Below, piece by piece: positions 30,293-56,872 of a stretch of 64,000 nucleotides of DNA (its first letter is position 1; the number at the start of each line of letters is the position of its first letter). Made by a program: the position numbers and the translations under genes. This stretch comes from Candidatus Melainabacteria bacterium (GTDB lineage: Bacteria; Cyanobacteriota; Vampirovibrionia; 2-02-FULL-35-15), in NCBI GenBank assembly GCA_016193285.1, contig JACPSL010000002.1, forward strand, positions 1 to 64,000, in the 5' to 3' direction. A model generated the notes under the pieces. It did no database searches and was not told the origin of the DNA. It saw nothing but the letters and a program-made list of their open reading frames with translations.

Positions 30293-32293
30293 TCACCTTT
30301 GTTTAACGGTTTTTGTTTCAATTATCTTTTCACCGTCTTCTGCAAATTTTGTTATAGTATCCTCATAAGCATCTTCATAACGAAGCCACTTTCTCTCAAG
30401 TCTTAATAGGCGTTTTCCATTTGGACCAAATATTTCCTCAATAGGACCTTTATCAGCAACAACATATTTAATTACTTTCTTTTCAACAAGTTTTCCTTCT
30501 GCATTATATTTTATTTCTTCTCTACCATCTTTATTGTAAGTATGTTCTGTTTTAAAAAGCAATTTCCCTGAACCATCATATTCCTCATCTACAGAGCCAT
30601 CTTTATGGGTAACTTTCTTACTGGTTAGTTTGTCATCGCTATCAAATAATTCTACGGTATAAATATCTTTTTGGGAAGTCACAACCTTTTGCCCAGTATA
30701 TTTATTATTTTCATCATAATTTTTTGTTATAGTTGGTTCATCTTTACTTGTTACTTCTATTATCTTACCTGCAAATTCTCCGTTTATATATGTTTCTGTA
30801 ATAGCTTCAAAATCAGCTCTTCTACCATCAAATCTTATAGTTCTTATTGATCTTCTTTCTTTTAGTTTTTCATTTAAGTCAAATGTTTCACTAGTTGTTC
30901 CTGTTGAATCACTTGTTATTCTTTTTTTTAACTTTCCATAAGCATTATAAAATTCTTTAATTTCTTTGTTAGATCTACCATCATTGCCAGGAGTTCTTAA
31001 TTCAAGAGATGACCAGCAAAGCTTACCATCTTTATCGTAGCTCTTTCTTGTTTCAAGTAGTCTATCATGAGTGTATTTTGAAGTGATCTTCCCATCATAA
31101 ACACCTTTGAAATAGTGCTCTCTAACAGATTCAACTGGCTTACCAAATTTGTCAAAAACTGAAATAGTATATTTGCTGGTTATTAATTTTTTACCGTCTT
31201 TTATATTATTTTCTGTTTCTACTAAACCCACGAGATCTCTGTCGGCAGAATATTCTTTAACAGTTACAGTTTCCCTGTTATTTTCTTTATTATCTGCTGA
31301 GATATCAAAAGTCTTGACAATTTTTCCATCACAATCCCTAACAACAGTTCTTCCTAAAAGCTTGTCTTTAGAGTAAGTAGTAGCTATAGTTTGAAGTACT
31401 TTTCCTTTGCCATCTTTTATTGTTTTTTCCGAAAATGTACCATCTAAACTTATTTCTTCAATGCTGGATTCAACAAATTCTCCCTTTTTGTTTTTTACAG
31501 TTGCAATAACCGTTGTGCCTTTTATATGTGATTTTGTTTCTATAACTGTAGTTAGATCCTTATCTTTGTCTTTTTTAGTTTCAAGTTTATTGTAAACCCA
31601 GCCTTTTCCAGTACTCTTTTCAACTACAGTTGTTCCATCTTCTACAATTTTAATTGTTTCTTTATCTGTTAATTTTCCTGTTGCGTCTTTAGTTTCTGTA
31701 ACTGAAGATAAACGATCCTCGCTGATTTTTGTTACTGTTGTGGAAACTAATTTAAAATCTATGTTTTCTTCTTTTGTAGTTACTGTCAAACCATTTTCAC
31801 TATATTCTGTTGAAATTCTTGATTTTACTTTATAGTCACTGTCCATTTCTTGAACGTATTTGAATATTCTTTTTCCATTAGCATCAAAATCTACAGTAGT
31901 AAGGATAAGCCCATTATTGCTCCTTTTTGTAACACTTCTTTCCTTTAATCTCCCTAATTTATCATAAGTAAATTCTTCTTTTTCTTTCAACTTTTTGTCT
32001 TCACCAATAATTTCAATAAAAGCAAGTTTATCGTCCTTCAATTTTTTAACTTCCCTTCCTCTGCTTTTATCTAATTCAAATGGCTCGTCAGTAAGAAGAG
32101 GTAAAAGTTCTTTTGTGCTTTCTTTACCTTGAGGATCTGTGAAAGCCACAAATTGAATGTCACTGCTTATGAATTGATCATTATCAATTTCTTCAGTGGT
32201 AGGCTTTATTGTAATTTTTTTTTCTGTGCTAGTCTCAAAATTCGCTAATGATTTCTTTCCTAATATAATGATTGTTCCAATTAAATTAACCAT
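30293..32293 (-). CDS. YD-repeat (RHS-like repeat) protein, 666 aa, with no recognisable toxin tip
   Basis: YD-like units recur: YDKLGRL, YDKDGKL, YNAYGKL, YNAEGKL, EYDGSGKLLFKTEHTYNKDGRE. The protein is Lys/Thr/Asp-rich. Confidence 0.5.
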   Translation of the reverse strand: MVNLIGTIIILGKKSLANFETSTEKKITIKPTTEEIDNDQFISSDIQFVAFTDPQGKESTKELLPLLTDEPFELDKSRGREVKKLKDDKLAFIEIIGEDKKLKEKEEFTYDKLGRLKERSVTKRSNNGLILTTVDFDANGKRIFKYVQEMDSDYKVKSRISTEYSENGLTVTTKEENIDFKLVSTTVTKISEDRLSSVTETKDATGKLTDKETIKIVEDGTTVVEKSTGKGWVYNKLETKKDKDKDLTTVIETKSHIKGTTVIATVKNKKGEFVESSIEEISLDGTFSEKTIKDGKGKVLQTIATTYSKDKLLGRTVVRDCDGKIVKTFDISADNKENNRETVTVKEYSADRDLVGLVETENNIKDGKKLITSKYTISVFDKFGKPVESVREHYFKGVYDGKITSKYTHDRLLETRKSYDKDGKLCWSSLELRTPGNDGRSNKEIKEFYNAYGKLKKRITSDSTGTTSETFDLNEKLKERRSIRTIRFDGRRADFEAITETYINGEFAGKIIEVTSKDEPTITKNYDENNKYTGQKVVTSQKDIYTVELFDSDDKLTSKKVTHKDGSVDEEYDGSGKLLFKTEHTYNKDGREEIKYNAEGKLVEKKVIKYVVADKGPIEEIFGPNGKRLLRLERKWLRYEDAYEDTITKFAEDGEKIIETKTVKQR

Positions 32294-32387
32294 AACCCTC
32301 TATTCTATGTCTTACAATACAAGGCAATAAGCTAAAAATTTTTGATATTAATAAACTTCTTCAAAATAAAATTTCCTTAATTATTTG

Positions 32388-32492
32388 AAAGTAGTGAAAA
32401 ACACTAGGAGGATAGTTAAATCACGCAGCAGGAGCTAAGTCCGGTTATAAAAATATACCCTTTATACTCCATTAATTTAGTTCTCGCTTTGA
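32388..32492. repeat. ~105-bp repeat, copy A (≈85% identical to copy B at 33817..33912)
   Basis: Hand alignment of the shared blocks cactagg, tcacgcagcaggagc, ccattaatttagttctc and ctttg. Copy A ends 95 bp upstream of the YD-repeat gene start. Confidence 0.6.
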
Positions 32493-32547
32493 AAGAGCGA
32501 GGCTTGCTTTGTTTACAAAGTCTGCAATTAATCTTTTAGCTCAATGT

Positions 32548-33723
32548 TCATAAAACCCGACTTGTAGCTTTTATAATTTCGCCAACCAGATTTCTTAAGC
32601 TAACAAATGTAACTTCTATACTTCCATATTTCTTTTTGTACGTTCTATCAATATCATGAGAAACTACATAATTTAGACCTTTTTGATATGTTCTTCTGAA
32701 AATCTCTAAGTTGGAAGAATTAAAATTGTCTGATTTCCATTTGCATTCAATTGCTATCGGATCTTTGCCTCTTGGGGAAATAACAAAATCTATTTCATTC
32801 CCTTGTTTATTTCTCCAATACATTATTTTTTTCGTTTGTGTTTCTGCATTTATTTCATTTAAAACAAAGTGCTCCCACAATACTCCCATATCATCTGGTC
32901 TTAAAGAGTTCCAACTACGATAGTAACAAACAAAACCTGTATCAAATGCATACACTTTTGGGGCTTTTACTATTTCGTTTATTTTGTAGGTGCTAAAAGG
33001 CCTAACAATATTTGCTACAAATGTTTGATCTAAAATATTTAAGTAGTTATTAATAGTGACTCTGCTTACTTCACAAGGCTTAGCATATTTTGTTGCTTCA
33101 AAAATCCCACCACTATTTACAAACAAAAGTTCAATAAACTTTTGAAAAGAACTTTTCTTTTCAAGCTTAAATAATTCTTCTATGTCTTTAGACCAATATT
33201 CGCTTATCCATTCCTCAAACTCATACTCTGGTACCTTGTTCTGCAAAAAATTAGGTGGTAGCCCACCAAATAAAAATCTATGACTGTAGTCTTGATTATT
33301 AAAATTCTTTAGATCTTTAGTAATTAAAGGAGTGAGCCAAATTGAACATTTTCTTCCAGTAAGCGTATCTTTAAATTTCTTTGATGAACCAAGTGTTGAT
33401 GAACCAGTTGCAACAACTTTTATATCAGGGAAATAATCACTAGCTATCTTTAATAGCTCTGATGGGTTATCTAGCCTGTGAACTTCATCAAAGATAACTT
33501 TCTTCTTTTTTAATCCTTTTAGAAATAACTCGGGATTTTCGGCTTGTTTTCTGATTCCATAAAGCTCAAAGTCAAAGTATTCAATGTTTGGAATAGATTT
33601 GCATAGGTAGGTTTTTCCTACTCTTCTTACACCATTAAGCCATATTACAGATCTGCTTTTCCAAGCATTGTTTATCTTTTCTAACCAGAAATCTCTTTGG
33701 ACCATACGTAAGCATACTATCAT
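32548..33723 (-). CDS. AAA+ ATPase of the AAA_14 + DUF4143 family, copy 3
   Basis: Walker A LNGVRRVGKTY, Walker B VIFDEVH. The DUF4143 C-terminus has …GNEIDFVIS…IECKWKS…. Confidence 0.8.
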   Translation of the reverse strand: MIVCLRMVQRDFWLEKINNAWKSRSVIWLNGVRRVGKTYLCKSIPNIEYFDFELYGIRKQAENPELFLKGLKKKKVIFDEVHRLDNPSELLKIASDYFPDIKVVATGSSTLGSSKKFKDTLTGRKCSIWLTPLITKDLKNFNNQDYSHRFLFGGLPPNFLQNKVPEYEFEEWISEYWSKDIEELFKLEKKSSFQKFIELLFVNSGGIFEATKYAKPCEVSRVTINNYLNILDQTFVANIVRPFSTYKINEIVKAPKVYAFDTGFVCYYRSWNSLRPDDMGVLWEHFVLNEINAETQTKKIMYWRNKQGNEIDFVISPRGKDPIAIECKWKSDNFNSSNLEIFRRTYQKGLNYVVSHDIDRTYKKKYGSIEVTFVSLRNLVGEIIKATSRVL

Positions 33724-33816
33724 ATGGTTTAACTATATGCAATCAATCTTTCGTTTAGTGTAAGCTGGGAATGCAACAATAAAGCAAACCTGTCCCTGTG
33801 AGTAAGGATAAACAAT

Positions 33817-33912
33817 AGTGAAGAGCACTAGGGGATACATCACGCAGCAGGAGCCAAGCCTGGTATATAAATATGCTCTCTATATTCCATTAATTTAGTT
33901 CTCACTTTGTAC
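33817..33912. repeat. ~105-bp repeat, copy B (direct orientation relative to copy A)
   Basis: See copy A. It ends 94 bp upstream of the copy-3 ATPase start. Confidence 0.6.
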
Positions 33913-33928
33913 CTGAGGCCCGATTTTA

Positions 33929-34288
33929 CTATAGTTCAATATCTAAATGTAAAGCCATCCCTTTTTTTACACTGCTAAAGTCTTGTTCATTTAGAATGCC
34001 TATTTTTTTAATAAAATTATTTTTGCTTACTGTATAAACATGAGAACAAATTGCTGCACTTGGTTTATTTAGACCACTTTGTTTTGTTGGTTTAAGATAG
34101 ATGTAAATCTCATCGTATTGCTCTACCTTTGTAGATGTAGGAACAACTGTTATTGTGTCTAGTAAAGTACACCCCTCGTTGCTTTGAACAACTATTGAAG
34201 GTCTTGCAGTTTTGCCAAGCTCACCTCTGCGGGATGGCTCATAATTAACTAGCCATACTTCACCTTTTTTTATTTCTTTGTTATCCAA
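33929..34288 (-). CDS. MazF/PemK-family type II toxin (mRNA interferase)
   Basis: KGEVWLVNYEPSRRGELGKTARPSIVVQSN…VVPTST… matches the PemK/MazF fold pattern. It overlaps the upstream antitoxin gene by 8 bp. Confidence 0.7.
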   Translation of the reverse strand: MDNKEIKKGEVWLVNYEPSRRGELGKTARPSIVVQSNEGCTLLDTITVVPTSTKVEQYDEIYIYLKPTKQSGLNKPSAAICSHVYTVSKNNFIKKIGILNEQDFSSVKKGMALHLDIEL

Positions 34289-34556
34289 GACTTTTTGCTA
34301 CCTCAAATTGTGCTTTTTCAAGAGCTGACAATTCCTCTGCTGCTTTTGACTTAGCAAATCTGGCATATGCTTGAACACGTTTTAATTTCCTGTAAGCTTT
34401 AATAGCATCAGCTATTAATTCACTAACACTTCGGCCAGTCTTTTCTGCTTCCTTCTTAATCAACTTAGCAAGCTCATCGTCTAATGAGATTGAGATTTTT
34501 ATAGACATTTTCTTACCTCTTTTCCTACTTTTTATCCTACTATAAATCCTACCCAC
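34281..34556 (-). CDS. RHH (CopG/MazE-like) antitoxin; true start probably MSIKISISLDD near 34510
   Basis: ISISLDDELAKLIKKEAEKTGRSVSELIADAIKAY has a ribbon-helix-helix pattern. It is the first gene of the pair. Confidence 0.6.
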   Translation of the reverse strand: MGRIYSRIKSRKRGKKMSIKISISLDDELAKLIKKEAEKTGRSVSELIADAIKAYRKLKRVQAYARFAKSKAAEELSALEKAQFEVAKSLG

Positions 34557-34590
34557 CTATCATTAAAACCTAATTAAATAAGGTATTTAG

Positions 34591-34631
34591 CCGCGTAGCG
34601 TAAACCACGGGAGCTTGCTCCCGAGTAGTTT
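34591..34631. repeat. GC-rich palindromic element, copy 1 (hairpin CGGGAGCTTGCTCCCG plus a second small GC hairpin)
   Basis: Its reverse complement AACTACTCGGGAGCAAGCTCCCG closely matches AACTACTCGGGGGCAAGCCCCCG at 63588..63612. Confidence 0.55.
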
Positions 34632-34645
34632 AGAAACGTAACGAA

Positions 34646-34662
34646 TGTAACCTTGGGTTACA
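34646..34662. promoter_or_regulatory. 17-bp palindrome TGTAACC-TTG-GGTTACA upstream of the mazE-like gene
   Basis: Seen directly. Candidate antitoxin operator. Confidence 0.25.
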
Positions 34663-34692
34663 AAGTTTGATGACTATTCAGTACTTTTTAAA

Positions 34693-35001
34693 TTACCAGT
34701 CCTTTACTACGTGATCCTTAAAGTAGTTAAAATTAATGTCTTTAATTTTAAAATTCTCTATTTGTGGACTTAAGAGAAAAAGATTAATCTTTTTTTGATT
34801 GGTAATTTTTGCATCTGCTAAAAATGAGTAAAATTTTTCAAGATTTTTTGCATGATTCATTGTAGGTGTTTCATTTGATTTTATTTCTATGACATCCAAT
34901 TTATCCCCATGTTCAATTAGCAAATCAACCTCAACACCATTGCTTTCTTTATAGAAAAAAAAGTTTTTATGTCCTCCAGTTGCAAAGTTTCTTTTTACCA
35001 A
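34693..35001 (-). pseudogene. truncated DUF4143 ATPase (C-terminal ~100 aa only), copy 4
   Basis: …NGVEVDLLIEHGDKLDVIEIKSNETP… is the DUF4143 C-terminal block. No Walker A region is present and no N-terminal half lies upstream. Confidence 0.5.
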
Positions 35002-36569: not shown

Positions 36570-37445
36570 CTAATAATAATAATAAGAGCGTTCATCTCCT
36601 AAAATTATTTCTATTGCATTTTCATTTTCATTTGCTGAAATTATTGCCTGAGTCTGTGAAATATCTTGTGCCCCTTCTGGCTTTTGAATTAGATCACCAT
36701 AAATATCTTCTAAATTAACCCCACTAGTTGCAGCTAACTTATCTTCTCCAAATGGCCTTAACACTAAGTGTAATTGGCCAACCTCACTAGCTAGTGCTAT
36801 TTTTTCTGCATCGTTTGAGCCAAGTGCAAGGGTTACTTGTGCAACTATTTTAGCTTGAGGTTCTGCAATAGAATTTATATCTAGAATTTTATCTCCTACT
36901 GCCAAGACTAAAATATTTTGTAAAATTGTTTTTGAAAATGTTTGTTGTTCATTACTTTTTAAAATTGAAACAATGTCAACACGATCACCTGGATTAATAA
37001 ATCCACCAACTCCAACTACTTCATTTACACGGATTGTTATTGCTCTTAGATCCTTTGGAATTACAACAGGCAAGCCACCACTAGCACCTTGACCAACAAG
37101 TCTGGTCTCAGTTACTACTTCATCAGCTTGTAATGTTGCTTTTACTATACGGTCTTTAACAGATGAAATTGAACTTGGATAATCTTTTGGAACTGCTTGT
37201 ACAGGAAATTGTTTAATTGCTAAATCGCTTTCTTGTAATTTAGTACCTGCTAGAATTTGTTTACCTGCTACAACAACTGGTTTTGTAACTGAGAGTGCTT
37301 TTACCTTTTCTTGTGTCTTGCTTAAATATTGCCAAACACCAGTTGCAGCAATTAATCCCAGGAACATTGCAAGTGAGGCCATGACCACAAGTGAATTAAT
37401 TTTGTTTTTGGTTTTTGGTGACAGGGGTGAAGGATTTATTGCCAT
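36570..37445 (-). CDS. cpaB: Flp pilus assembly protein CpaB/RcpC
   Basis: An N-terminal TM segment, an SAF-like domain (VVVAGKQILAGTKLQESDL) and the …IPKDLRAITIRVNEVVGVGGFINPGDRVDIV… beta-clip region. Confidence 0.7.
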   Translation of the reverse strand: MAINPSPLSPKTKNKINSLVVMASLAMFLGLIAATGVWQYLSKTQEKVKALSVTKPVVVAGKQILAGTKLQESDLAIKQFPVQAVPKDYPSSISSVKDRIVKATLQADEVVTETRLVGQGASGGLPVVIPKDLRAITIRVNEVVGVGGFINPGDRVDIVSILKSNEQQTFSKTILQNILVLAVGDKILDINSIAEPQAKIVAQVTLALGSNDAEKIALASEVGQLHLVLRPFGEDKLAATSGVNLEDIYGDLIQKPEGAQDISQTQAIISANENENAIEIILGDERSYYYY

Positions 37446-37933
37446 AGTTTTGAAAAAATTTCATCATTGATTCCAAATGTTATATATAAAATTGTACCCA
37501 GTGCAATAGCAACTCCATATGGCACTTTTTGTTTTTTATCTACAACTGGTAACATTTGTCCAGTTGTTATCAGAAACTTAAAATGACCTGAATTAAATAT
37601 TATCCAAACTAGTCCTAATAATAATCCACAAAATGCACTGTAGAAAAAAATAAAGATTACATCTTTAACTCCAACAATAGAGCCAATTACAGCAAGAAGC
37701 TTAACATCACCAGCACCCATCCCGCCTTTTAAGTAAGGAATTATCAAAAGTAAGATCCCAACAGTAAAGCCAAGTAAACAATTTACAATCCCTTGAAGTT
37801 TAAATGAAAAAATGTTTATTAAAAAAATAAAAATAAAAATACCAAAAATAAGCCAATTAGGAATCTTTCTATACTTCCAGTCAAAAAAACCACCTAAAAC
37901 AGATATTATTAAAAGTAATATTTCCTTACTCAT
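37436..37933 (-). CDS. cpaA: A24-family prepilin peptidase (CpaA/TadV)
   Basis: A small polytopic membrane protein with GGFFDWKYRKIPNWL and GAGDVKLLAVIGS motifs. Confidence 0.7.
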   Translation of the reverse strand: MSKEILLLIISVLGGFFDWKYRKIPNWLIFGIFIFIFLINIFSFKLQGIVNCLLGFTVGILLLIIPYLKGGMGAGDVKLLAVIGSIVGVKDVIFIFFYSAFCGLLLGLVWIIFNSGHFKFLITTGQMLPVVDKKQKVPYGVAIALGTILYITFGINDEIFSKLWQ

Positions 37934-37987: not shown

Positions 37988-38191
37988 TTATTGAGTATTT
38001 AGTTCAGTATTAACATTAGTAAAAATATTCGAGATTGAGCCTCTCATTGAGATTATTATTGATGCAACACCAGCAGCAACAATTCCTAAGAGCAGTGCAT
38101 ATTCTGTCATTGATGCACCTTCTTCATCACGAATAAATCTAATGACTATGTCCATAAAGTTATTCCCAATCCTAAGCAATTGATCTAGCAA
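37988..38191 (-). CDS. flp: Flp/Fap-family pilin, copy 1
   Basis: …DEEGASMTEYALLLGIVAAGV… is the Flp motif (EEGAT.IEYGLI). Confidence 0.75.
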   Translation of the reverse strand: MLDQLLRIGNNFMDIVIRFIRDEEGASMTEYALLLGIVAAGVASIIISMRGSISNIFTNVNTELNTQ

Positions 38192-38250: not shown

Positions 38251-38415
38251 TTACTTAGTAAGTTCAGTATTAGCATTTGTAAAAATGGTCTTGATGGAGC
38301 CTCTCATTGTGACTATTACTGATGCAACACCAACAGCAATAAGTCCTAAGAGCAGTGCATATTCTGCCATTGATGCACCTTCTTCATCACGAATGAATTT
38401 AATGATTGTATCCAT
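38251..38415 (-). CDS. flp: Flp/Fap-family pilin, copy 2 (54 aa, not in the ORF track)
   Basis: Hand translation gives MDTIIKFIRDEEGASMAEYALLLGLIAVGVASVIVTMRGSIKTIFTNANTELTK. A GGAGG RBS lies 7 nt upstream. Confidence 0.7.
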   Translation of the reverse strand: MDTIIKFIRDEEGASMAEYALLLGLIAVGVASVIVTMRGSIKTIFTNANTELTK

Positions 38416-38627
38416 AATTAACCTCCTATCATAAACTAACTTTTATTACATACCCACTTACCAGGAAAAATATACCTATTGTTAACCCTTTGTTTCACAG
38501 GGCTATCTCTACGTTCTAATTATTTTTTACTCACCTGTTTAATCTAACAAGGTTTAACCCTAAGACTCTAGGGGTAACAAAAATATAGAACGTAAGTTCT
38601 TTGCTCTTTAGTTAGGGAGTATAACGA

Positions 38628-40757
38628 TTGAATTTCTTTGAAGCAATAAAAAACCATTTAAGACTGGGCCTGTTAATTGTATTTATTGTACCTGCTATGG
38701 CTTGGATAATTGCACTGTCAATTACTCCAATCTTTGAGAGTAGAGCAAGGCTCCTAATAGAAGTAAAAGACTTAGGATTTGAAGGACAACAAGCTCAACC
38801 ATTTAGAACAATTGCAAGAGCAAGTGACCCTATACAAACTCAGATTGAAATTCTAAGATCAGCCACAATCTTAGATAAAGTTATCAGGCAATTTAATATG
38901 AGATATGAAAGTGGTAGTAGAAAAGGACAGTACTTAAGTTATTTAAACTTAAATGCTAATTTTGCTGTTTCTGCTGATAGAAATGTTGACGTAGTTGAAC
39001 TAAAGTTTAAACACTCTGATCCTAATTATGCAAAACACATCTTACAAGCTATTACTGACAGTTACATAGAAAAAACAATTGAATTAAAAGCAAGTGATAC
39101 TGCAAGTGCAATTAGATTTTTAAAAAAAGAAAGAAATAAAGCAGAAAGAGAAGCTCTTGAAGCTAGTAAACGTTTAAGAGAATTTGAACATAAAAGTAAA
39201 ACAATTAGTTTAGAAAGTAATCAAGAAATAGTAAAAAGCCTATATTCACTTAGAAGCATTAAACTTACAGCAGAAAGTGAACATGTTAAAGCAAAAACAG
39301 CCTCGGAACAAATTACTAAACAACTTATGTCCAGTCTAAGTGATTCACTTTTAAACATTACTGTTAGCGAAGATCCTTTTCTTACTGCACTTAGAAAAGA
39401 CTTGTATGAAAAGGAAACACAGTTAGTAAGATTACAAACCAAAGTAAAATCTGGTCATTATCAACTTGAAGAAATAAAACAACAAATTGAAGGAGATAAA
39501 AAACTTATAGAAGAAAGGGTTAAAGAGTTAGTTGGCAAGCAAGTAAATTTAAAATCCTTTTCATTTTCTAATGATCCGGTTCGTGCAGAATTAACTAGAA
39601 ACCTACTTCAAACCAAGACAGCTGAACTAGCTATTAAAGAACAACTAAAGGTAATTGATGAAGCACTTGATGAAGTACTAAAAAAACTTGAAAAATTACC
39701 AAATGAAAAATATATTTATACTCAGTTATTAAGACAAAATGACATTGCTGAAAAACGTCTTGAAGAAATTGAAAAGAAACTAATTGAATCAAGAATGAAG
39801 GGTGTGATTGCTTCTCATATTACTAATATAAGACTTATTGATCCTCCATCATTAGCAACTTCCCCAATACATCCTAATATTCCATTTGCTTTATTTTCAA
39901 GTTTTATTTTTGGACTTATTCTTGCACTTATTGTAGTTTACATTGTTGAATATTTTGATGATGTTATTAAAGGCGTTGACACTCTTCCAAGTGAAATGGG
40001 TTGCCCGTTCTTAGGCCAATTGCCTCAAGTCCATATTGGTGACTTACCAATTGTTTATCAAGAACCAAGATCAGAATACACAGAATCTATTCATGCACTT
40101 AGAACAAATCTTTCATTCTTATCTCTTTCAGGAAATAAAAAACTTTTACTTATTACAAGCCCAAGCGTACATGAAGGAAAGTCTACCGTGTCATTAAATT
40201 TAGCAATTACTTATGCACAAAGCGGGAAGAGAGTTTTATTAATTGATAGTGACATTAGGAATCCATCATTGTACAAGTACCTGGCAAGGCCAAAAGATAC
40301 AGTTGGTATAAGTAATACCTTAATTAATGAGATTGACTTTTATGATGTAGTACAAAAAAGTATTTTAGGAATAATTGGATTTGATTATTTACCAAGCGGT
40401 GAAATCCCACCAAATCCAATACAGCTCCTTGAATCAGATAGAATGAGAGAACTGCTTGAAACTGCACAACATATTTATGACCTAGTAATACTAGACACAC
40501 CACCTTTAGGATTATTTTCAGATGCACTACTACTAGCACGTTATGTAGATGTTGTTGGACTGGTGTCAAGATATAACAAGACTTCAAGAAAAGAATTAAT
40601 GGCAGCAATTGATTTACTAAAGAAATCAAATGTAACTGCAATCGGGGTTGTACTTAATTCAGTTCCATCCGGCGCAACTGGAACATACGGATACGGGTAT
40701 GGTTATTATGGCTATGGTGAAAGTGAAAGGTATGCAAAAGGTGAATCAGCAGCATAA
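38628..40757 (+). CDS. wzc: polysaccharide co-polymerase / BY-kinase (Wzc-like tyrosine autokinase)
   Basis: An N-terminal Wzz-like domain with two TM segments and a long coiled coil. The C-terminal P-loop has Walker A SPSVHEGKST, A' LLIDSD and B DLVILDTPP. The Tyr cluster is GTYGYGYGYYGYGESERY. It uses a TTG start with a GGGAG RBS. Confidence 0.85.
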   Translation: MNFFEAIKNHLRLGLLIVFIVPAMAWIIALSITPIFESRARLLIEVKDLGFEGQQAQPFRTIARASDPIQTQIEILRSATILDKVIRQFNMRYESGSRKGQYLSYLNLNANFAVSADRNVDVVELKFKHSDPNYAKHILQAITDSYIEKTIELKASDTASAIRFLKKERNKAEREALEASKRLREFEHKSKTISLESNQEIVKSLYSLRSIKLTAESEHVKAKTASEQITKQLMSSLSDSLLNITVSEDPFLTALRKDLYEKETQLVRLQTKVKSGHYQLEEIKQQIEGDKKLIEERVKELVGKQVNLKSFSFSNDPVRAELTRNLLQTKTAELAIKEQLKVIDEALDEVLKKLEKLPNEKYIYTQLLRQNDIAEKRLEEIEKKLIESRMKGVIASHITNIRLIDPPSLATSPIHPNIPFALFSSFIFGLILALIVVYIVEYFDDVIKGVDTLPSEMGCPFLGQLPQVHIGDLPIVYQEPRSEYTESIHALRTNLSFLSLSGNKKLLLITSPSVHEGKSTVSLNLAITYAQSGKRVLLIDSDIRNPSLYKYLARPKDTVGISNTLINEIDFYDVVQKSILGIIGFDYLPSGEIPPNPIQLLESDRMRELLETAQHIYDLVILDTPPLGLFSDALLLARYVDVVGLVSRYNKTSRKELMAAIDLLKKSNVTAIGVVLNSVPSGATGTYGYGYGYYGYGESERYAKGESAA

Positions 40758-51971: not shown

Positions 51972-52742
51972 CTATTGAACATTTTCAATCTCAATTCCAA
52001 CAGGACAATGATCTGATCCCATAACTTCTGACATTATAAATGCTTTTTTTAGATTGTTTACAAGATTAAGAGTTATAAAAAAATAATCAATTCTCCAGCC
52101 AACATTTCTTTCCCGAGCTCTTGTTATTGGATCCCAAAAAGTATAATATTCACCATCTTTTACAAAGTGCCTGAAAGTATCTATGTAACCAGATTCTACA
52201 AACTTATCCATCCATTTTCTTTCAACAAGTAAAAATCCACTTGTGTTTTCATTTTCTTTAGGTCTTGCAAGATCAATTTCTTTATGAGCAGTGTTTACAT
52301 CTCCACAAATAATTATTTTTTTCTCTTTCTCTTTTAACTTATTTACATACTTTAAAAACTCATCATAAAAAGCTAGCTTATAATTTAATCTTTCTTCATC
52401 TCTCTGACCATTTGGGAAATAAATATTAAATAAAATAAGATCACCATAATCATGAATTAAAATCCTTCCTTCTGAATCAAATTTTTTTACACCAAAACCT
52501 GTTTCAGTTTTCTTGGGTTCTTTTTTTGTAAAAGTTACAACTCCGCTATATCCTTTTCTTTCTGCACTTGACCAGAATGTTTTATAACTATTAGGCTCCA
52601 GTAATTCTTTATTTAATTGATTTGTCTGAGCCTTTGTTTCTTGTACACATAAAATATCAGGGCTTTCTTTTTGAAGCCATTCTAAAAATCCTTTTTTTTG
52701 AATAGCACGTATGCCGTTTACGTTCCAGGAGAGTAGCTTCAT
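51972..52742 (-). CDS. xth: exodeoxyribonuclease III (AP endonuclease)
   Basis: MKLLSWNVNGIRA…, …QETK… and the C-terminal SDHCPV motif. Length 256 aa. Confidence 0.9.
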   Translation of the reverse strand: MKLLSWNVNGIRAIQKKGFLEWLQKESPDILCVQETKAQTNQLNKELLEPNSYKTFWSSAERKGYSGVVTFTKKEPKKTETGFGVKKFDSEGRILIHDYGDLILFNIYFPNGQRDEERLNYKLAFYDEFLKYVNKLKEKEKKIIICGDVNTAHKEIDLARPKENENTSGFLLVERKWMDKFVESGYIDTFRHFVKDGEYYTFWDPITRARERNVGWRIDYFFITLNLVNNLKKAFIMSEVMGSDHCPVGIEIENVQ

Positions 52743-52754
52743 AGTTTAAATTTC

Positions 52755-52978
52755 TAAATAGCCTGAACAGACAGTTTTTCTTTTTTTCTTGTCTTAAAGT
52801 AAAGCTTTTCAAAGCCAATAATTTTTTTGTTTCTTTTGTTTTTTATTAATATGATCCCATCGCCAGCTTCTTCACAAACTTGATTTCTAGAAGGCTTATC
52901 AAAATATACTGTTAAGGTTTCACCTTTTCTGTCATGAATTATTTTTAACTTGGCTATATTTTTTCTCCTTCCTTTATT
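52755..52978 (-). CDS. DUF2283-like small protein ORF without a canonical start codon (frame −1 relative to the upstream gene end)
   Basis: Hand translation gives …HDRKGETLTVYFDKPSRNQVCEEAGDGIILIKNKRNKKIIGFEKLYFKTRKKEKLSVQAI*. This fits the DUF2283 pattern D.L.i.f…..GiilDyd..g.ivGiEil. There is no ATG/GTG/TTG. An A6 run lies at the junction with the upstream ORF. Confidence 0.3.
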
Positions 52979-53256
52979 TTATCAGTAATATAGGCTGTGA
53001 TTATAAATCCATCTAAGTCCATAGATTTCGTGACAACACAAATCCAATAACTGTTTATTCTCTTATAAAAAAGCAGGACATTATTATCTATCTTGCTTTT
53101 TGTAATTAAGTCAGGCATTTTTAAAGTATTTTTTATCAATGTTAAACACATTGTGGTTTCTGGGTGTTTTATTTGTATGAGTTCCCAGTACTCTTGAGTA
53201 GTTCTAATGTTTAAACCGATTGGAGTATTGATCTTAAACAAATATTTTTTAGGCAT
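52954..53256 (-). CDS. DUF4258-like small protein (putative toxin partner of DUF2283)
   Basis: A 100-aa protein with C-terminus …VLLFYKRINSYWICVVTKSMDLDGFIITAYITD… resembling the DUF4258 C-terminal VV……IITAY pattern. The call is weak. Confidence 0.3.
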   Translation of the reverse strand: MPKKYLFKINTPIGLNIRTTQEYWELIQIKHPETTMCLTLIKNTLKMPDLITKSKIDNNVLLFYKRINSYWICVVTKSMDLDGFIITAYITDKIKEGEKI

Positions 53257-53298
53257 AACTGATTAGTATAGTACAAATACTAAAATTACTTCAATAAA

Positions 53299-53354
53299 TT
53301 AACCAGCTTTACAATTGTATCTTTTGCATCACCAAAAAGCATCATGGTTTTTGG
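53299..53354. repeat. 56-bp perfect direct repeat of the pntB 3' end (copy 1, displaced)
   Basis: Identical to 54060..54115. The adjacent 15 bp encode the same VNLLK* ending as pntB using different codons. Confidence 0.8.
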
Positions 53355-53363
53355 TAAGAAAGT

Positions 53364-53699
53364 TTACTCTATGACTTCCAGAATTTCCTTCACCTTTTCT
53401 TTGATCTTTGGAAGATCTTCTCTGATAGCTTTTTCTACTTTTTCTGTATCTATATTGAAATACTGATGTGCAAGAATATTTCGCATATTAGCAATCTGTC
53501 GCCAAGGTATTTCAGGATACTTATTCTTCAATTCTTCTGATAAATATCTGCAAGCCTCACCAATGATTTCAATGCATCTAACTACACCCATAAACTTTAA
53601 TTCATCTAATTCGTGTAGAGACTTACCGAAGGACAGGTTCTTATCTAAAAGCTCCATAGCCTCTAAAATATCCAAGAGCCTTGATTTATCATCTCTCAT
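53364..53699 (-). CDS. hepT: HepT-family HEPN toxin (DUF86)
   Basis: The RNxxxHxY motif is in IANMRNILAHQYFNI. It overlaps mntA by 4 bp (ATGA). Confidence 0.8.
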   Translation of the reverse strand: MRDDKSRLLDILEAMELLDKNLSFGKSLHELDELKFMGVVRCIEIIGEACRYLSEELKNKYPEIPWRQIANMRNILAHQYFNIDTEKVEKAIREDLPKIKEKVKEILEVIE

Positions 53700-53986
53700 A
53701 AATGCTTAGCTTCTTTTAAAACATGATCTTTAATTCTTTCTTTTAAAACTTTTTCAGTTGCAACATCAACTTTATGACCAAGTAAATCTTCAAGATCAAG
53801 CCATAATTCACTCCAGCCTAAAAGTCCAACTTCAGGTCGGAAATCTACTAAAAAGTCAATGTCACTATTCTCATTTGCTTCCTGCCTTGCCACTGAGCCA
53901 AAAACTCTGACATTGAAAGCTCCATGCTTTTGAGCAAGCTTTAAAATTTCTTTTCTCTTACTTTTTACTAATTCATATAGTCCCAT
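53696..53986 (-). CDS. mntA: MntA-family nucleotidyltransferase antitoxin
   Basis: Minimal NTase motif RVFGSVARQEANENSDIDFLVDF (GS…DxD). Confidence 0.8.
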   Translation of the reverse strand: MGLYELVKSKRKEILKLAQKHGAFNVRVFGSVARQEANENSDIDFLVDFRPEVGLLGWSELWLDLEDLLGHKVDVATEKVLKERIKDHVLKEAKHL

Positions 53987-54046
53987 GATAAAAATTCCTA
54001 GCTAAATTATACACACTAATCTCTAAATCCAGCAAGTTAGCTTGTC

Positions 54047-55417
54047 TTATTTTAAAAGATTAACCAGCTTTACAATTGTATCTTTTGCATCACCAAAAAG
54101 CATCATGGTTTTTGGAAGTAAAAAAAGTTCATTTTCAATTCCTGCAAAACCTGGAGCCATAGAGCGTTTTAAGAATATAATTGTCTTTGCTTTTTCTACA
54201 TCTAAAATTGGCATTCCATATATTGGACTTGCTGAATTATTTTTTGCAGCAGGGTTTGTTACATCATTTGCACCTACTACAAGTGCTACATCTGCTCTTT
54301 CAAACTCAGGGTTTACATCATCCATCTCATAAAGTTTTTCATAAGGCACATTTGCTTCAGCAAGCAGAATATTCATGTGTCCTGGCATTCTTCCTGCTAC
54401 AGGATGAATTGCATATTTAACTTCTGCTCCTTTTTTTTCAAGCAGGTCTGCAAGTTCCCTTACATTATGCTGGGCTTGTGCAACTGCAAGTCCATATCCA
54501 GGTACAATAATTACTAAACTTGCATTTTCTAAAACAACAATTGCATCATCAGGTGTATATCCTTGGACGGTCTGTGTCTTTGATTTATCTATGCTGCTTA
54601 GATCTAACTTTCCAAATGCTCCAAACATAACATTTAACATTGAACGGTTCATTGCTTTGCACATGATTTGAGTAAGAATAATCCCTGATGCACCAACAAG
54701 TGAACCAGTAATAATTAAACAATAGTTAGATAAGATAAAACCAGCTGCACATCCTGCCATACCTGAATATGAATTTAATAAGCAAATTACAACTGGCATA
54801 TCAGCCCCGCCAATTGGCAGAACTAAAAGTGCACCTAAGATAAAAGATATTACTCCAACTACAATAAACCAAATAAAATTTTCCGGATGAAAGCATAAAT
54901 AACCTAATCCCCATACGATTGCAAAAAACTGAAATAAGTTTAATGTCTTTTGAAATGGATATGTAATTGGCTGCCCGCTAATAAAGCCTTCTAACTTTCC
55001 ATAAGCCATTACACTTCCTGTAAAAGTTATTGCTCCAATGATTAAAGTTATTGTTGTAGTAGTAATGCCATATAAGGTTTGATTATTATAGTGGCTTATA
55101 TACTCGGAAGTTGCTACTAGTGCTGATGCTAAACCGCCACAGCCATTTAAAAGACCTACCATTTGAGGCATCTGTGTCATTTTTACAGTAACAGACAAAT
55201 ATGCACCAATAGCTGAACCAATTAACAATCCAAGAAAAATATATTGGTAGCTAACAATATGTTTATCTATTAGCGTTGAACAAATTGCAATAAGCATACC
55301 TAGCGCAGAATAAAAATTCCCAGACCTTGCAGTTTTAGGTGAGCTTAACATTTTTAATCCAAGGATAAACAAAACTGCAGAAACCAGATAAGATAAGTTA
55401 ATTAAATTTTCTTGCAC
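54047..55417 (-). CDS. pntB: NAD(P) transhydrogenase subunit beta
   Basis: A polytopic membrane N-terminal domain and a C-terminal NADP(H)-binding domain (…GYGLAVAQAQH…VVGANDV…). Length 456 aa. Confidence 0.9.
   Translation of the reverse strand: MQENLINLSYLVSAVLFILGLKMLSSPKTARSGNFYSALGMLIAICSTLIDKHIVSYQYIFLGLLIGSAIGAYLSVTVKMTQMPQMVGLLNGCGGLASALVATSEYISHYNNQTLYGITTTTITLIIGAITFTGSVMAYGKLEGFISGQPITYPFQKTLNLFQFFAIVWGLGYLCFHPENFIWFIVVGVISFILGALLVLPIGGADMPVVICLLNSYSGMAGCAAGFILSNYCLIITGSLVGASGIILTQIMCKAMNRSMLNVMFGAFGKLDLSSIDKSKTQTVQGYTPDDAIVVLENASLVIIVPGYGLAVAQAQHNVRELADLLEKKGAEVKYAIHPVAGRMPGHMNILLAEANVPYEKLYEMDDVNPEFERADVALVVGANDVTNPAAKNNSASPIYGMPILDVEKAKTIIFLKRSMAPGFAGIENELFLLPKTMMLFGDAKDTIVKLVNLLK
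54060..54115. repeat. 56-bp direct repeat, copy 2 (the in-place pntB 3' end)
   Basis: See 53299..53354. Confidence 0.8.
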
Positions 55418-55434: not shown

Positions 55435-55716
55435 TCATTTTCTCTTAAACATTTTTAGCATTCTGTCCGTGACAGCATAACCACCAACTACATTTATCAT
55501 TGCAAGTACAACTGCTGCAAGACCAACAAAGGTAGTTGTAGTGTTAACATCTCCTGTTGCAATTAATGCACCTACAACGGTAATTCCAGAAATTGCATTT
55601 GAACCAGACATAAGTGGTGTATGGAGAGTTGGTGGTACTTTTGAAATAACTTCAAAACCAATAAAAATTGCTAAGACAAAAATATAAATTGTAATTAAAA
55701 GTTCACCAAATGACAT
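55435..55716 (-). CDS. pntA: NAD(P) transhydrogenase subunit alpha part 2 (membrane)
   Basis: A 93-aa three-helix membrane protein between the alpha-1 gene and pntB. Confidence 0.8.
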   Translation of the reverse strand: MSFGELLITIYIFVLAIFIGFEVISKVPPTLHTPLMSGSNAISGITVVGALIATGDVNTTTTFVGLAAVVLAMINVVGGYAVTDRMLKMFKRK

Positions 55717-55732
55717 TTTTTATTCTCCAATT

Positions 55733-56872
55733 CTAACGTACTCCTGCAAGAAGATGTTTTATATTTTCTTGCAGAATCACACCCTTATGAGCAACCAATG
55801 CTCCTTTGTTTATTTCATCATTTAAATCAAAGTTTAACTGTCCATTTTTTACAAGGTGTGCAATTACACTTTCCATATTTTTTGAAAACATTTGACTTGC
55901 ATGATTTGGCATTGTTGAAGGAAGATTTAAAAGTCCACTAATAGTTACGCCATCTTTAACTATTGTTTTACCAAGCTCAGTAACTTCACAATTTCCACCT
56001 TGATCAACTGCTAGATCCACAATTATTGCTCCTGCTTGCATTTCTTTTACCATAGCTTCTGTAATTAATATTGGTGCTCTTTTACCTGGGATTTGAGCAG
56101 TTGTAATTACCACGTCTGATTTTTTAACATGCTTTCCAATTAACTCTAATTCTTTTTGGTGAAGTTCTTTTGAAATTTGTTTAGCATAACCACCTTCACC
56201 TTCAGTTTTTTCACTACCTAAATCAAGTTCAACAAATCTTGCACCTAAACTTTCTGTTTGTTCTTTTACTACTGGTCTTGTATCAAAAGCTTCAACAACT
56301 GCACCCAGCCTTTTAGCAGTAGCAATTGCTTGAAGGCCAGCAACACCAGCACCAATAATAAAAACTTTTGCAGGTGCAATTGTACCTGCTGCTGTCATAA
56401 GCATTGGGAAAAACTTTGGTAAGTGATTTGCTGCTATTAGAACAGCTTTGTAACCACTAATAGTACTCATTGAACTTAAAACATCCATGCTCTGGGCTCG
56501 TGTTATTCTAGGAATGCTGTCTAATGAAAATGCTGTTATCTTTTTGGTAGTTAATTTTTTTAAGGTATCTATGTTTATTGTTGCTTGTAGTATTGAAACT
56601 AGTGCTGCCTCTTCTTTCATTAAACCAATTTCATTAAACTCTGGCTTTCTTACTTTTATTATTAAGTCAGATGTAGAATAAAGCAAATCTGTATCTTTAA
56701 TAATTTTTGCACCTGCTTCTTCATATTCTTTATCACTAAAAAAAGAAGCTTCACCTGCACCAGATTCAACCTGAACTTCGATACCTTTTTGAGTAATTTT
56801 TTTTATGCTTTGAGGTACAAGTGCAACTCTTGTTTCATTTCCTTGTATTTCATTAGGAATACCTATCTTCAT
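55733..56872 (-). CDS. pntA: NAD(P) transhydrogenase subunit alpha part 1 (AlaDH/PNT dI domain)
   Basis: Rossmann motif IIGAGVAGLQAIATAKRLGA and an AlaDH/PNT N-terminal domain. Length 379 aa. Confidence 0.9.
   Translation of the reverse strand: MKIGIPNEIQGNETRVALVPQSIKKITQKGIEVQVESGAGEASFFSDKEYEEAGAKIIKDTDLLYSTSDLIIKVRKPEFNEIGLMKEEAALVSILQATINIDTLKKLTTKKITAFSLDSIPRITRAQSMDVLSSMSTISGYKAVLIAANHLPKFFPMLMTAAGTIAPAKVFIIGAGVAGLQAIATAKRLGAVVEAFDTRPVVKEQTESLGARFVELDLGSEKTEGEGGYAKQISKELHQKELELIGKHVKKSDVVITTAQIPGKRAPILITEAMVKEMQAGAIIVDLAVDQGGNCEVTELGKTIVKDGVTISGLLNLPSTMPNHASQMFSKNMESVIAHLVKNGQLNFDLNDEINKGALVAHKGVILQENIKHLLAGVR

What the first reader, a model, noticed from the sequence alone, without database searches (positions are those of the whole stretch)
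53282..54115. HepT/MntA toxin-antitoxin cassette inserted at the 3' end of pntB, flanked by a 56-bp perfect duplication with synonymous recoding of the last codons
The last 56 bp of pntB (54060..54115, encoding …PKTMMLFGDAKDTIVKLVN) recur perfectly at 53299..53354, on the far side of the hepT-mntA pair. In both copies the next 15 bp encode the same terminal residues VNLLK plus a stop. They do so with different codons: GTT AAT TTA TTG AAG TAA in the displaced copy versus GTT AAT CTT TTA AAA TAA in the in-place copy. Together with the DUF4258/DUF2283-like pair next door, the xth–pntB interval looks like an insertion hotspot. The recoded displaced gene end suggests the cassette arrived carrying a pntB 3' end from a different lineage. 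That points to homology-facilitated or site-specific insertion at the end of a conserved gene rather than random insertion.
Basis: seen in the sequence. Interest (0 to 1): 0.7.

Follow-up and report, generated by a model that had tools for sequence, protein, structure and literature searches.

The report
Toxin-antitoxin pair bracketed by duplicated pntB end
In a Melainabacteria genome, a HepT/MntA toxin-antitoxin pair lies between two copies of the last ~72 bases of the housekeeping gene pntB. This looks like the scar of homology-assisted recombination that stacked two toxin-antitoxin modules in one variable slot, a known kind of event but not one I found described for toxin-antitoxin genes.

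Summary
A 57-bp perfect direct repeat (53298-53354 = 54059-54115) brackets mntA-hepT. Each copy continues into Leu-Leu-Lys-stop written with different codons. The repeat has only these two copies in the window.

- The pntB-xth interval is a variable slot. The closest relative found (L177/L178) has pntB, an 86-aa ORF and xth, with no cassette and a single pntB end.
- Two other relatives (L161, L163) carry mntA-hepT just upstream of xth.
- No integrase or transposase, no attC-like fold and no shared attachment sequence were found, so site-specific insertion is not supported.
- The four clustered synonymous differences argue for recombination between two pntB-end alleles.
- Which module arrived later (mntA-hepT or the neighbouring DUF4258/DUF2283-like pair) cannot be decided.

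The pattern recurs. Related mntA-hepT cassettes are bracketed by duplicated 3' ends of other genes: an rlpA-like gene in L164/L165, in an array with vapBC, and a glycosyltransferase in L166/L167. A marine cyanobacterium (L028) has a separate TA-bearing insert bracketed by ~310 nt of pntB end.

The closest known analogues are "insertion with long target duplication" of restriction-modification genes and the orphan arrays of Rhs/CDI/T6SS loci. I rate it a new member of a known kind, of moderate interest.

The parts
54047..55417 (-). pntB, the NAD(P) transhydrogenase beta subunit, intact. It is the last gene of pntAA (56872..55733), pntAB (55716..55435) and pntB.
   Evidence: Pfam PF02233 over residues 7-453, E 6e-187. 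Identical to an NCBI Melainabacteria MAG protein, P0025.
54047..54122 (-). In-place copy of the repeat. The perfect core is 54059-54115. The last 12 nt, 54047-54058, read CTT TTA AAA TAA.
   Evidence: The terminal codons plus GACA after the stop match L177 (CTT CTA AAA TAA GACA) at 15 of 16 positions.
53987..54046 (-). 60-nt spacer with the likely mntA-hepT promoter, an extended -10 (TGTGTATAAT).
   Evidence: Read from the sequence. GGGTATAAT or GTATAAT lies at the same place in the related cassettes L165, L166, L173 and L163. This is inferred, not tested.
53696..53986 (-). mntA, a MNT nucleotidyltransferase antitoxin of 96 aa. The GS...DxD motif is present (GSVARQEANENSDID).
   Evidence: Pfam Polbeta and NTP_transf_2, E about 6e-12. 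Its stop overlaps the hepT start by 4 nt.
53364..53699 (-). hepT, a HEPN RNase toxin of 111 aa. The Rx4H motif is present (RNILAH).
   Evidence: Pfam PF01934, E 1e-24. Homologues at 59-75% identity sit in eight other contexts.
53355..53363 (-). 9-nt linker ACTTTCTTA between the hepT stop and the displaced pntB end. This is the illegitimate junction.
   Evidence: It is not homologous to pntB. It resembles the hepT-xth spacer of L163 (ATTTTTCTTA, then TG of the xth start). An alignment that includes the hepT 3' end beat all 2000 shuffles.
53286..53354 (-). Displaced pntB 3' end, 22 codons plus stop, reading PKTMMLFGDAKDTIVKLVNLLK*. The perfect core is 53298-53354. The last 12 nt, 53286-53297, read TTA TTG AAG TAA.
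   Evidence: The terminal 12 nt equal those of L001 pntB. The pntB-proximal edge of the core is a 23-nt imperfect palindrome, CCAAAAACCATGATGCTTTTTGG, 20 of 23 self-complementary.
53265..53294 (-). Promoter-like site TTGAAG, 18 nt, TATACT. Its -35 hexamer lies in the last codons of the displaced pntB end. It would drive the DUF4258/DUF2283-like pair.
   Evidence: Consensus scan, 9 of 12 matches. The number of such sites in the region is not above the shuffled expectation, so this is only a lead.
52954..53256 (-). 100-aa ORF, DUF4258-like, a putative toxin.
   Evidence: Weak Pfam hit to DUF4258, E 0.048. It belongs to a family of 49 homologues, mostly 103 aa; one at 52% identity is named DUF4258 by NCBI.
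52754..52957 (-). DUF2283-like small ORF, a putative antitoxin, with no ATG/GTG/TTG start. Its first in-frame codon after the toxin stop is ATA.
   Evidence: Translation. Weak Pfam hit to DUF2283, E 0.013. Identical in five Logan contigs.
51972..52742 (-). xth, an exodeoxyribonuclease III-type gene. It is the conserved right border of the variable slot.
   Evidence: Pfam Exo_endo_phos, E 4.5e-33. 83% identical to xth of L177, where it follows pntB plus an 86-aa ORF.

Best explanation
The slot between pntB and xth holds different small modules in different strains and lineages of this Melainabacteria group. Each module travels with its own version of the last four codons of pntB.

In this genome two such modules have been stacked in tandem:
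- A: CTT TTA AAA TAA, then mntA-hepT.
- B: TTA TTG AAG TAA, then the DUF4258/DUF2283-like pair.

The stacking needed one homologous exchange and one illegitimate join. The homologous exchange was either in pntB, where donor and recipient share at least 57 identical bases, or in xth. The illegitimate join is hepT-TAA-ACTTTCTTA | CCAAAAACC. This is recombination of the homology-facilitated illegitimate type. It left a 72-nt pntB end as a scar between the modules. pntB itself stays intact.

Both modules are toxin-antitoxin pairs, so recombinants that replaced one by the other would tend to be killed. That would favour the rare products that keep both.

Shown: the anatomy, the two end alleles, the variable slot, the lack of recombinase genes and the recurrence elsewhere. 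Inferred: the recombination route, the role of addiction and the order of arrival, which I cannot decide.
For: (1) The differences are clustered. A 57-nt perfect core is followed by 4 synonymous differences in the last 9 coding nt. The probability of such clustering is about 2.4e-4. Random decay of a fresh duplicate does not give this. Two alleles shaped by selection on a working pntB would.

(2) Each end allele is seen in a relative as the natural end of pntB. L177 has CTT CTA AAA TAA GACA. L001 has TTA TTG AAG TAA.

(3) A relative has an uninterrupted slot. L177 and L178 carry pntAA-pntAB-pntB, an 86-aa ORF and xth, with no cassette and one pntB end.

(4) Other contents of the same slot exist. 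In L163 mntA-hepT lies 9 nt from the xth start. In L161 mntA-hepT is followed by an 80-aa ORF and then xth. The HepT and MntA of the window are most similar to those two: 71-76% identity, against 58-74% to cassettes at other loci.

(5) The 9-nt linker after hepT resembles the L163 hepT-xth spacer.

(6) None of the ORFs scanned from 42.8 to 63.2 kb (all but two of those of 80 aa or more) hits a transposase or integrase family. The flanks are LexA, pntA, xth and glycosyltransferase genes, with the pnt, xth and LexA-like genes also neighbouring in L177.

(7) The same anatomy occurs elsewhere.
- L164/L165: an rlpA-like gene, vapBC, a displaced rlpA end, mntA-hepT and another displaced rlpA end. 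The most distal copy joins a different downstream sequence and encodes a longer C-terminus.
- L166/L167, seen in three samples: a 41-nt perfect repeat holds the overlapping 3' ends of two convergent genes, one copy on each side of mntA-hepT.
- L028: a displaced pntB end of about 310 nt, 85% identical and decayed. It lies behind a 2.3-kb insert with a DUF433/DUF5615 TA pair.

(8) The route has precedents. [quoted passage not shown] Long target duplications flank restriction-modification genes (PMC2853133).
Against: - No close (same-species) genome with only module A or only module B was found. The existence of alternative modules within one population is therefore inferred from relatives that are only 72-88% identical in protein.
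- At 75-78% nucleotide identity synonymous sites are close to saturated. The matches of the two end alleles to L177 and L001 could be partly chance.
- In L164 the two junctions after vapC and after hepT share the same linker (AAATAAAAAACT) and the same entry point into the rlpA end. Independent illegitimate joins would not do that. It fits better with cassettes moving by recombination within the repeat itself, or with a dedicated site.
- Five of the eight contexts where both flanks could be read, each holding a homologous cassette, show no flanking repeat.
- Natural competence and toxin-antitoxin activity in this organism are untested.
Confidence: 0.55

Rival explanations
1. A small circular mntA-hepT cassette carried an ~80-nt mimic of the pntB end as its attachment site. 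It integrated by a single Campbell-type crossover, catalysed by a recombinase encoded elsewhere or by RecA. On this view these cassettes form integron-like arrays behind host genes.
For: - The topology fits. The in-place end is contiguous with the cassette and the displaced end with the old downstream DNA.
- In L164 two unrelated TA cassettes share both junction sequences. On the left is a 12-nt extension that includes the toxin stop codons. On the right are about 40 nt after the gene's stop.
- The unit sizes are similar: 741, 761, 803 and 977 bp.
Against: - No integrase or transposase lies in the cassette or among the ORFs scanned from 42.8 to 63.2 kb.
- The repeats at the three loci come from unrelated genes and I saw no shared motif by eye.
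- None of the repeats has an attC-like single-strand fold. Five of six folds had z between -0.8 and +0.6. The exception (z -2.4) reflects only the short palindrome in the pntB repeat.
- The cassettes differ by about 30% in sequence, so there is no sign of recent hopping.
- No circular form could be looked for.
Confidence: 0.17
2. This is a simple insertion with long target duplication, as described for restriction-modification genes. A staggered break or a template switch duplicated about 72 nt of the target on insertion of mntA-hepT. The last four codons of one copy were changed later by a separate recombination with another pntB allele.
For: - The event meets the Furuta criteria: an insert under 20 kb, a flanking repeat over 30 bp and no mobility genes (PMC2853133).
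- The L166 repeat is perfect over 41 nt and is just what is needed to keep two overlapping convergent genes intact.
- The edge of the repeat nearest the pntB body is a 23-nt palindrome, a plausible break or stall site.
Against: - The homology ends at the pntB stop codon in both copies.
- The in-place copy continues into GACA, as the natural pntB end of L177 does. The displaced copy does not. One duplicated block therefore does not explain both ends.
- It needs an extra event to account for four clustered synonymous changes.
Confidence: 0.15
3. The arrangement is an assembly chimera of two co-occurring strains. One would have pntB-mntA-hepT-xth and the other pntB-DUF pair-xth.
For: - The sequence comes from a metagenome-assembled genome.
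- A related lineage (L178) occurs in the same series of sequencing-run accessions.
- Short-k assemblies break at the repeat.
Against: - A chimera needs a k-mer shared between the hepT end and the inside of pntB. There is none: the junction ACTTTCTTA|CCAAAAACC is unique.
- The 57-nt repeat is shorter than the k-mers I would expect a MAG assembler to use.
- The same break point at k-1 is seen in five runs, which fits both copies being present together.
- L166/L167 and L164/L165 show the same anatomy in independent samples.
Confidence: 0.03

Closest known systems
Insertion with long target duplication of restriction-modification gene complexes (Nobusato et al. 2000, Gene 259:99; Furuta, Abe and Kobayashi 2010, PMC2853133)
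   Same: - A small addiction-type gene unit with no mobility gene.
- It is flanked by a direct repeat of tens to hundreds of bp.
- That repeat is present once in a genome lacking the insert.
- In some published cases the repeat overlaps the 3' end of the neighbouring gene.
- Cases in Microcystis, a cyanobacterium, are reported there.
   Different: - The cargo is a type VII toxin-antitoxin pair, not R-M genes.
- The two repeat copies are not the same allele at their distal 12 nt.
- The comparison genome is a distant relative, not the same species.
Orphan arrays at T6SS effector-immunity, Rhs and CDI loci, proposed to form by homology-facilitated illegitimate recombination (Kirchberger et al. 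2017, PMC5361080, and references therein)
   Same: - New modules enter behind a conserved upstream sequence.
- Older modules are pushed downstream and keep a displaced 3' fragment of the upstream gene.
- The retained genes are ones whose loss is penalised.
- Arrays build up, as in L164.
   Different: - Here the conserved anchor is an unrelated housekeeping gene (pntB, an rlpA-like gene or a glycosyltransferase), not the toxin gene itself.
- The displaced fragment is only 41-120 nt.
- The retained units are complete toxin-antitoxin pairs.
HepT/MntA (HEPN/MNT) type VII toxin-antitoxin systems (Yao et al. 2020, PMC7641770)
   Same: - The gene order is mntA then hepT, with a 4-nt overlap.
- The sizes are typical: 96 and 111 aa.
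- The Rx4H and GS...DxD motifs and the Pfam domains are present.
   Different: Nothing in the proteins themselves looks unusual. Only the genomic setting is of interest.
Integron gene cassettes and att-flanked non-autonomous integrative elements (CIMEs)
   Same: - Small promoter-plus-gene units are separated by repeated sequences.
- They can form arrays.
- TA cassettes are common cargo.
   Different: - No integrase was found.
- The repeats are copies of host coding sequence, without the hairpin structure of attC.
- The repeat sequence differs from locus to locus.

Membership tests
HepT/MntA type VII toxin-antitoxin | HEPN-domain toxin with an Rx4-6H motif | tested here: met
   PF01934, E 1e-24, covering profile positions 1-120 of 120. 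RNILAH is present in the translation.
HepT/MntA type VII toxin-antitoxin | MNT nucleotidyltransferase antitoxin with GSX10DXD, encoded directly upstream in one operon | tested here: met
   PF01909 and PF18765, E about 6e-12. GSVARQEANENSDID is present. The mntA stop overlaps the hepT start (53696-53699).
HepT/MntA type VII toxin-antitoxin | Toxicity of HepT and its neutralisation by AMPylation | not testable with these tools
   This needs expression experiments.
Insertion with long target duplication (Furuta 2010 criteria) | Insert under 20 kb flanked by a direct repeat over 30 bp, with no mobility-related gene in or next to it | tested here: met
   A 57-nt perfect repeat (76 nt at 91%) spaced 761 bp apart. 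No transposase or integrase domains.
Insertion with long target duplication (Furuta 2010 criteria) | The repeat is present once, without the insert, in a related genome | tested here: met
   L177 and L178 have a single pntB end followed by an 86-aa ORF and xth. The relative is distant, with 78% nucleotide identity in pntB.
Insertion with long target duplication (Furuta 2010 criteria) | Both repeat copies derive from one target sequence | tested here: inconclusive
   The core is identical. The last 12 nt differ at 4 synonymous sites, and only the in-place copy continues as in L177.
Site-specific integrative element (att-flanked, integrase-dependent) | A tyrosine or serine recombinase in the element or nearby | tested here: not met
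   The cassette holds only mntA and hepT. The ORFs scanned from 42.8 to 63.2 kb have no recombinase domain. The rest of the genome was not available.
Site-specific integrative element (att-flanked, integrase-dependent) | The same attachment sequence is used by related elements | tested here: not met
   Related cassettes are flanked by ends of pntB, an rlpA-like gene or a GT4 gene, or by no repeat at all.
Integron cassette | An attC site, an imperfect palindrome that folds as a single-strand hairpin | tested here: not met
   DNA folds of the three repeat families give z-scores from -2.4 to +0.6. Only a local 23-nt hairpin appears in the pntB repeat.
Orphan-module stacking by homology-facilitated illegitimate recombination | A displaced 3' fragment of the conserved upstream gene lies in front of another module, and the same slot holds alternative contents in relatives | tested here: met
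   The displaced pntB end precedes the DUF4258/DUF2283-like pair. The slot contents differ in L177, L161 and L163.
Orphan-module stacking by homology-facilitated illegitimate recombination | One junction is homologous and one is illegitimate with little or no homology | tested here: inconclusive
   The junction ACTTTCTTA|CCAAAAACC has no clear homology to pntB. The homologous crossover cannot be located without close relatives.

The most novel reading that the evidence does not exclude
In Melainabacteria, and perhaps cyanobacteria more widely, toxin-antitoxin modules may form a recombinase-free cassette system. Each cassette would carry a copy of the 3' end of a host gene as its own homology arm. 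It would spread by DNA uptake and RecA into any genome with that gene. It could not be replaced, because of addiction, and so would pile up into integron-like arrays behind housekeeping genes, as in L164: rlpA, vapBC, rlpA end, mntA-hepT, rlpA end.
Probability: 0.15. Interest if true: 0.7.

Novelty: new member of a known kind. Interest (0 to 1): 0.4.

Why it matters
How chromosomal toxin-antitoxin pairs move without transposases or integrases is poorly understood. This locus shows a concrete footprint of such movement, and so do three others found from it. The footprint is a TA module bracketed by a duplicated end of the neighbouring gene, which leaves that gene intact.

The footprint ties TA modules to two phenomena described for other 'addictive' genes: long target duplication around restriction-modification systems, and orphan arrays at polymorphic-toxin loci. 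It suggests that addiction itself helps build stacks of modules.

The footprint is also a practical marker. Displaced gene ends of 40-300 nt next to small defence or TA genes could be searched for systematically, to date and count such events. Short-read assemblies break at these repeats, so such loci are probably under-reported.

Tried and rejected
- **Exact-protein look-ups.** Look-ups of PntB and HepT found nothing on record.
- **Collection scans with PntB.** Closer relatives came only from the protein search.
- **attC-like structure.** Rejected.
- **Shared end motifs.** Alignments showed no homology beyond the -10 box upstream or beyond the hepT stop downstream.
- **Polarising the two pntB-end alleles.** Sliding-window identity to L177, L001 and L081 failed because the relatives are too diverged.
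- **L017 repeat.** A 55-nt 'repeat' across the pntB stop in L017 is a scaffold gap of 100 N and was discarded.
- **DUF4143 fragment.** The fragment at 34693-35001 is not a displaced end of the neighbouring full-length gene.
- **Viral contigs.** No relatives of HepT or of the 100-aa ORF.
- **Rfam.** Only two tRNA-Pro genes in the window.
- **Literature.** Searches found no description of TA pairs flanked by long target duplications. The library is incomplete, so this is weak evidence.
Full report
**1. What is in the sequence**

All genes of the region lie on the minus strand. In the direction of transcription the order is:
- pntAA (56872..55733), pntAB (55716..55435) and pntB (55417..54047);
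- a 60-nt spacer;
- mntA (53986..53696) and hepT (53699..53364);
- a 9-nt linker;
- a 72-nt copy of the pntB 3' end (53354..53286);
- a 29-nt spacer;
- a 100-aa ORF (53256..52954);
- a small ORF without a canonical start (about 52957..52754);
- xth (52742..51972).

Pfam confirms PNTB, NTP_transf_2/Polbeta, HepT-like and Exo_endo_phos with strong scores. The two small ORFs give only sub-threshold hits to DUF4258 (E 0.048) and DUF2283 (E 0.013). A 52%-identical homologue of the 100-aa ORF is named DUF4258 by NCBI.

The repeat search returns a 76-nt direct repeat at 91% identity, spaced 761 bp apart. The perfect run is 57 nt. After it, both copies encode Leu-Leu-Lys-stop with four synonymous differences.

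HepT carries Rx4H and MntA carries GS...DxD, so the pair looks intact.

**2. Where it comes from**

The exact HepT, PntB and 100-aa proteins are NCBI proteins of a Candidatus Melainabacteria MAG, on a 71-kb contig.

Five Logan assemblies from five runs carry the identical sequence of the 100-aa ORF and xth. All five begin at window position 53327, which is 30 nt inside the repeat counted from its divergent end. I assume those assemblies use k = 31. In that case a branch in the graph at the point where the two copies diverge would give exactly this. So both continuations exist in each sample.

No k-mer is shared between the hepT end and the interior of pntB. A chimeric assembly is therefore unlikely.

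**3. The slot in relatives**

The closest relative with a long contig is L177, with L178 from a sequencing run. PntB is 87% identical and xth 83%. It has pntAA, pntAB, pntB, an 86-aa ORF and xth. There is no TA pair and only one pntB end.

Two more distant relatives carry mntA-hepT just upstream of xth:
- In L163 the hepT stop is 9 nt from the xth start.
- In L161 an 80-aa ORF lies between hepT and xth.

The HepT and MntA of the window are most similar to those two (71-76% identity). Identity to cassettes at other loci is 58-74%. That level is about the same as the divergence of xth itself, which is 72% over the first ~87 residues.

The 9 nt after hepT in the window (ACTTTCTTA) resemble the L163 spacer (ATTTTTCTTA), which runs straight into the ATG of xth.

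The interval is thus a variable slot. mntA-hepT may be an old resident of it.

**4. Two alleles of the pntB end**

The in-place end reads CTT TTA AAA TAA GACA. It matches L177 (CTT CTA AAA TAA GACA) at 15 of 16 positions. The displaced end reads TTA TTG AAG TAA and equals the end of L001 pntB.

Four differences packed into 9 nt, next to 57 identical nt, are not what decay of a fresh duplicate gives (P about 2.4e-4). All four are synonymous, so both versions were shaped inside working pntB genes.

The last four codons of pntB therefore appear to travel with whatever lies downstream.

The relatives are only 75-78% identical in pntB at the nucleotide level. I cannot say which allele is ancestral in this genome.

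**5. Mechanism**

- The cassette has no recombinase. None of the ORFs scanned between 42.8 and 63.2 kb has a transposase or integrase domain.
- The repeat does not fold like an attC site.
- The only structural feature is a 23-nt imperfect palindrome, CCAAAAACCATGATGCTTTTTGG (20 of 23 self-complementary). It sits exactly at the edge of the repeat nearest the pntB body, where the illegitimate junction lies.

The anatomy fits one homologous exchange plus one illegitimate join between two versions of the slot:
- A: pntB end A, then mntA-hepT.
- B: pntB end B, then the DUF pair.

Either of two routes gives the observed order. Incoming A was anchored in pntB and joined illegitimately to the resident pntB at CCAAAAACC. 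Or incoming B was anchored in xth and joined illegitimately just after the resident hepT.

Both modules are TA pairs, so clean replacement of one by the other should be counter-selected. That would enrich for the rare products that keep both. This last step is inference.

A promoter-like site (TTGAAG, 18 nt, TATACT) has its -35 hexamer in the displaced end. This may be a further reason why the fragment is kept with the DUF pair. The scan is not above background, so it is only a lead.

**6. The pattern recurs**

Homologous mntA-hepT cassettes (59-75% HepT identity) were found in eight other contexts. Both flanks could be read in seven of them.

*L164/L165.* An rlpA-like DPBB gene is followed by vapBC, a copy of the last ~86 nt of the rlpA-like gene plus 36 nt beyond its stop, mntA-hepT, and a further copy of the rlpA end.
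- The most distal copy joins a different downstream sequence and encodes a longer C-terminus, as expected for the original end.
- The copies behind vapC and behind hepT share the linker AAATAAAAAACT and the same entry point into the rlpA end.
- That shared junction argues for cassettes being exchanged by recombination within the repeat, not for independent illegitimate joins.

*L166/L167* (three samples). A 41-nt perfect repeat carries the overlapping 3' ends of a glycosyltransferase-4 gene and a convergent 177-aa ORF. One copy lies on each side of mntA-hepT, so both genes stay whole.

*The other five contexts.* These have no repeat, and the cassette is wedged between genes with almost no spare bases.

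Including the window, that is three of the eight contexts in which both flanks could be examined.

*Scan of other pntB loci.* A scan of 157 pntB loci from other taxa found one more real case, L028, a marine cyanobacterium MAG. About 310 nt of the pntB end are repeated 2.6 kb downstream at 85% identity, with a frameshift. They lie behind an insert carrying a MUG113/T5orf172 ORF, a DUF433/DUF5615 TA pair and a methyltransferase. A second hit, L017, is a scaffold gap and was discarded.

**7. Comparison with what is known**

[quoted passage not shown] In some cases the duplication overlaps the 3' end of the neighbouring gene. Microcystis cases are among them (PMC2853133; review PMC3874152). The mechanism is unknown.

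T6SS effector-immunity arrays and Rhs or CDI orphans keep displaced 3' ends. They have been explained by homology-facilitated illegitimate recombination with retention of genes whose loss is penalised (PMC5361080).

The present locus has the footprint of the first and the logic of the second, with a type VII TA pair as cargo. My literature searches found no report of this for TA pairs. The library is incomplete, so this is weak evidence.

**8. Verdict**

- Homology-assisted recombination at the end of a conserved gene, in a variable slot: supported.
- Site-specific insertion: not supported.
- The claim that hepT/mntA is the newcomer carrying a foreign pntB end: one of two equally possible readings.

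It is a new member of a known kind of event and of moderate interest. The interest comes mainly from the recurrence at other genes and from the array in L164.

Noticed in passing
window 32417-32491 and 33836-33909: A ~95-nt intergenic sequence occurs twice at about 85% identity, in two blocks each. One copy lies just after the mazF stop and one after the stop of a DUF4143/AAA_14 ATPase gene (32548..33723). The two copies bracket the ATPase gene next to an RHH-MazF pair (33929..34556). No Rfam match. It could be a small-RNA or small-ORF element, or another duplication scar.
   Followed up: partly
window 34693-35001: A 102-aa ORF matches only the C-terminal end of DUF4143, so it is a truncated gene fragment. 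It is not homologous to the nearby full-length DUF4143 gene at the DNA or protein level.
   Followed up: yes
window 30141-30214 and 30293-35001: A tRNA-Pro(GGG) gene lies next to a block holding a 666-aa protein of unknown family, the DUF4143 ATPase, mazEF and the gene fragment. This may be an island integrated beside the tRNA gene. It was not examined for att repeats.
   Followed up: no
window 37996-38157 and 38256-38417: Two copies of a 162-nt sequence (87% identity, 260 bp apart) lie in the intergenic region between ORFs 37436..37933 and 38628..40757. Tandem Repeats Finder did not call an array.
   Followed up: partly
window 52754-52957: The DUF2283-like ORF has no ATG/GTG/TTG start. It begins at ATA right after a good Shine-Dalgarno-like AAGGAAGGAG and overlaps the stop of the 100-aa ORF. 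The 100-aa ORF is 3 residues shorter than the 103 aa typical of its family. This points to an unusual start codon or a recently damaged antitoxin gene.
   Followed up: partly
window 53332-53354 (= 54093-54115): The 23-nt imperfect palindrome CCAAAAACCATGATGCTTTTTGG (20 of 23 self-complementary) encodes the conserved PKTMMLFG of PntB. It lies exactly at the edge of the repeat where the illegitimate junction sits. It may be a break or stall site.
   Followed up: partly
L163 53-343: The mntA of this relative has an in-frame TAA inside the catalytic motif region (EEADE*SDIDF), while hepT is intact. This is an antitoxin pseudogene, a sequencing error or a recoded stop.
   Followed up: no
L028 4883-4993 and 6193-6630: Inside the insert behind pntB, pieces of the methyltransferase gene region are themselves repeated (65 nt at 98%, 48 nt at 79%) on the far side of the MUG113/T5orf172 ORF and the DUF433/DUF5615 pair. 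This suggests a second, nested insertion with duplication.
   Followed up: partly
L164 517-691: Between the rlpA-like gene and vapB there is a GC-rich element (GTCATTCCCGCGAA...). It was seen only through short ORF translations and in the alignment, and was not characterised.
   Followed up: no
L172 492-1694: In one context, a homologous hepT (about 60% identical to the window's HepT) lies next to a Transposase_mut (IS256-type) gene. This is the only cassette context found with a transposase nearby.
   Followed up: no
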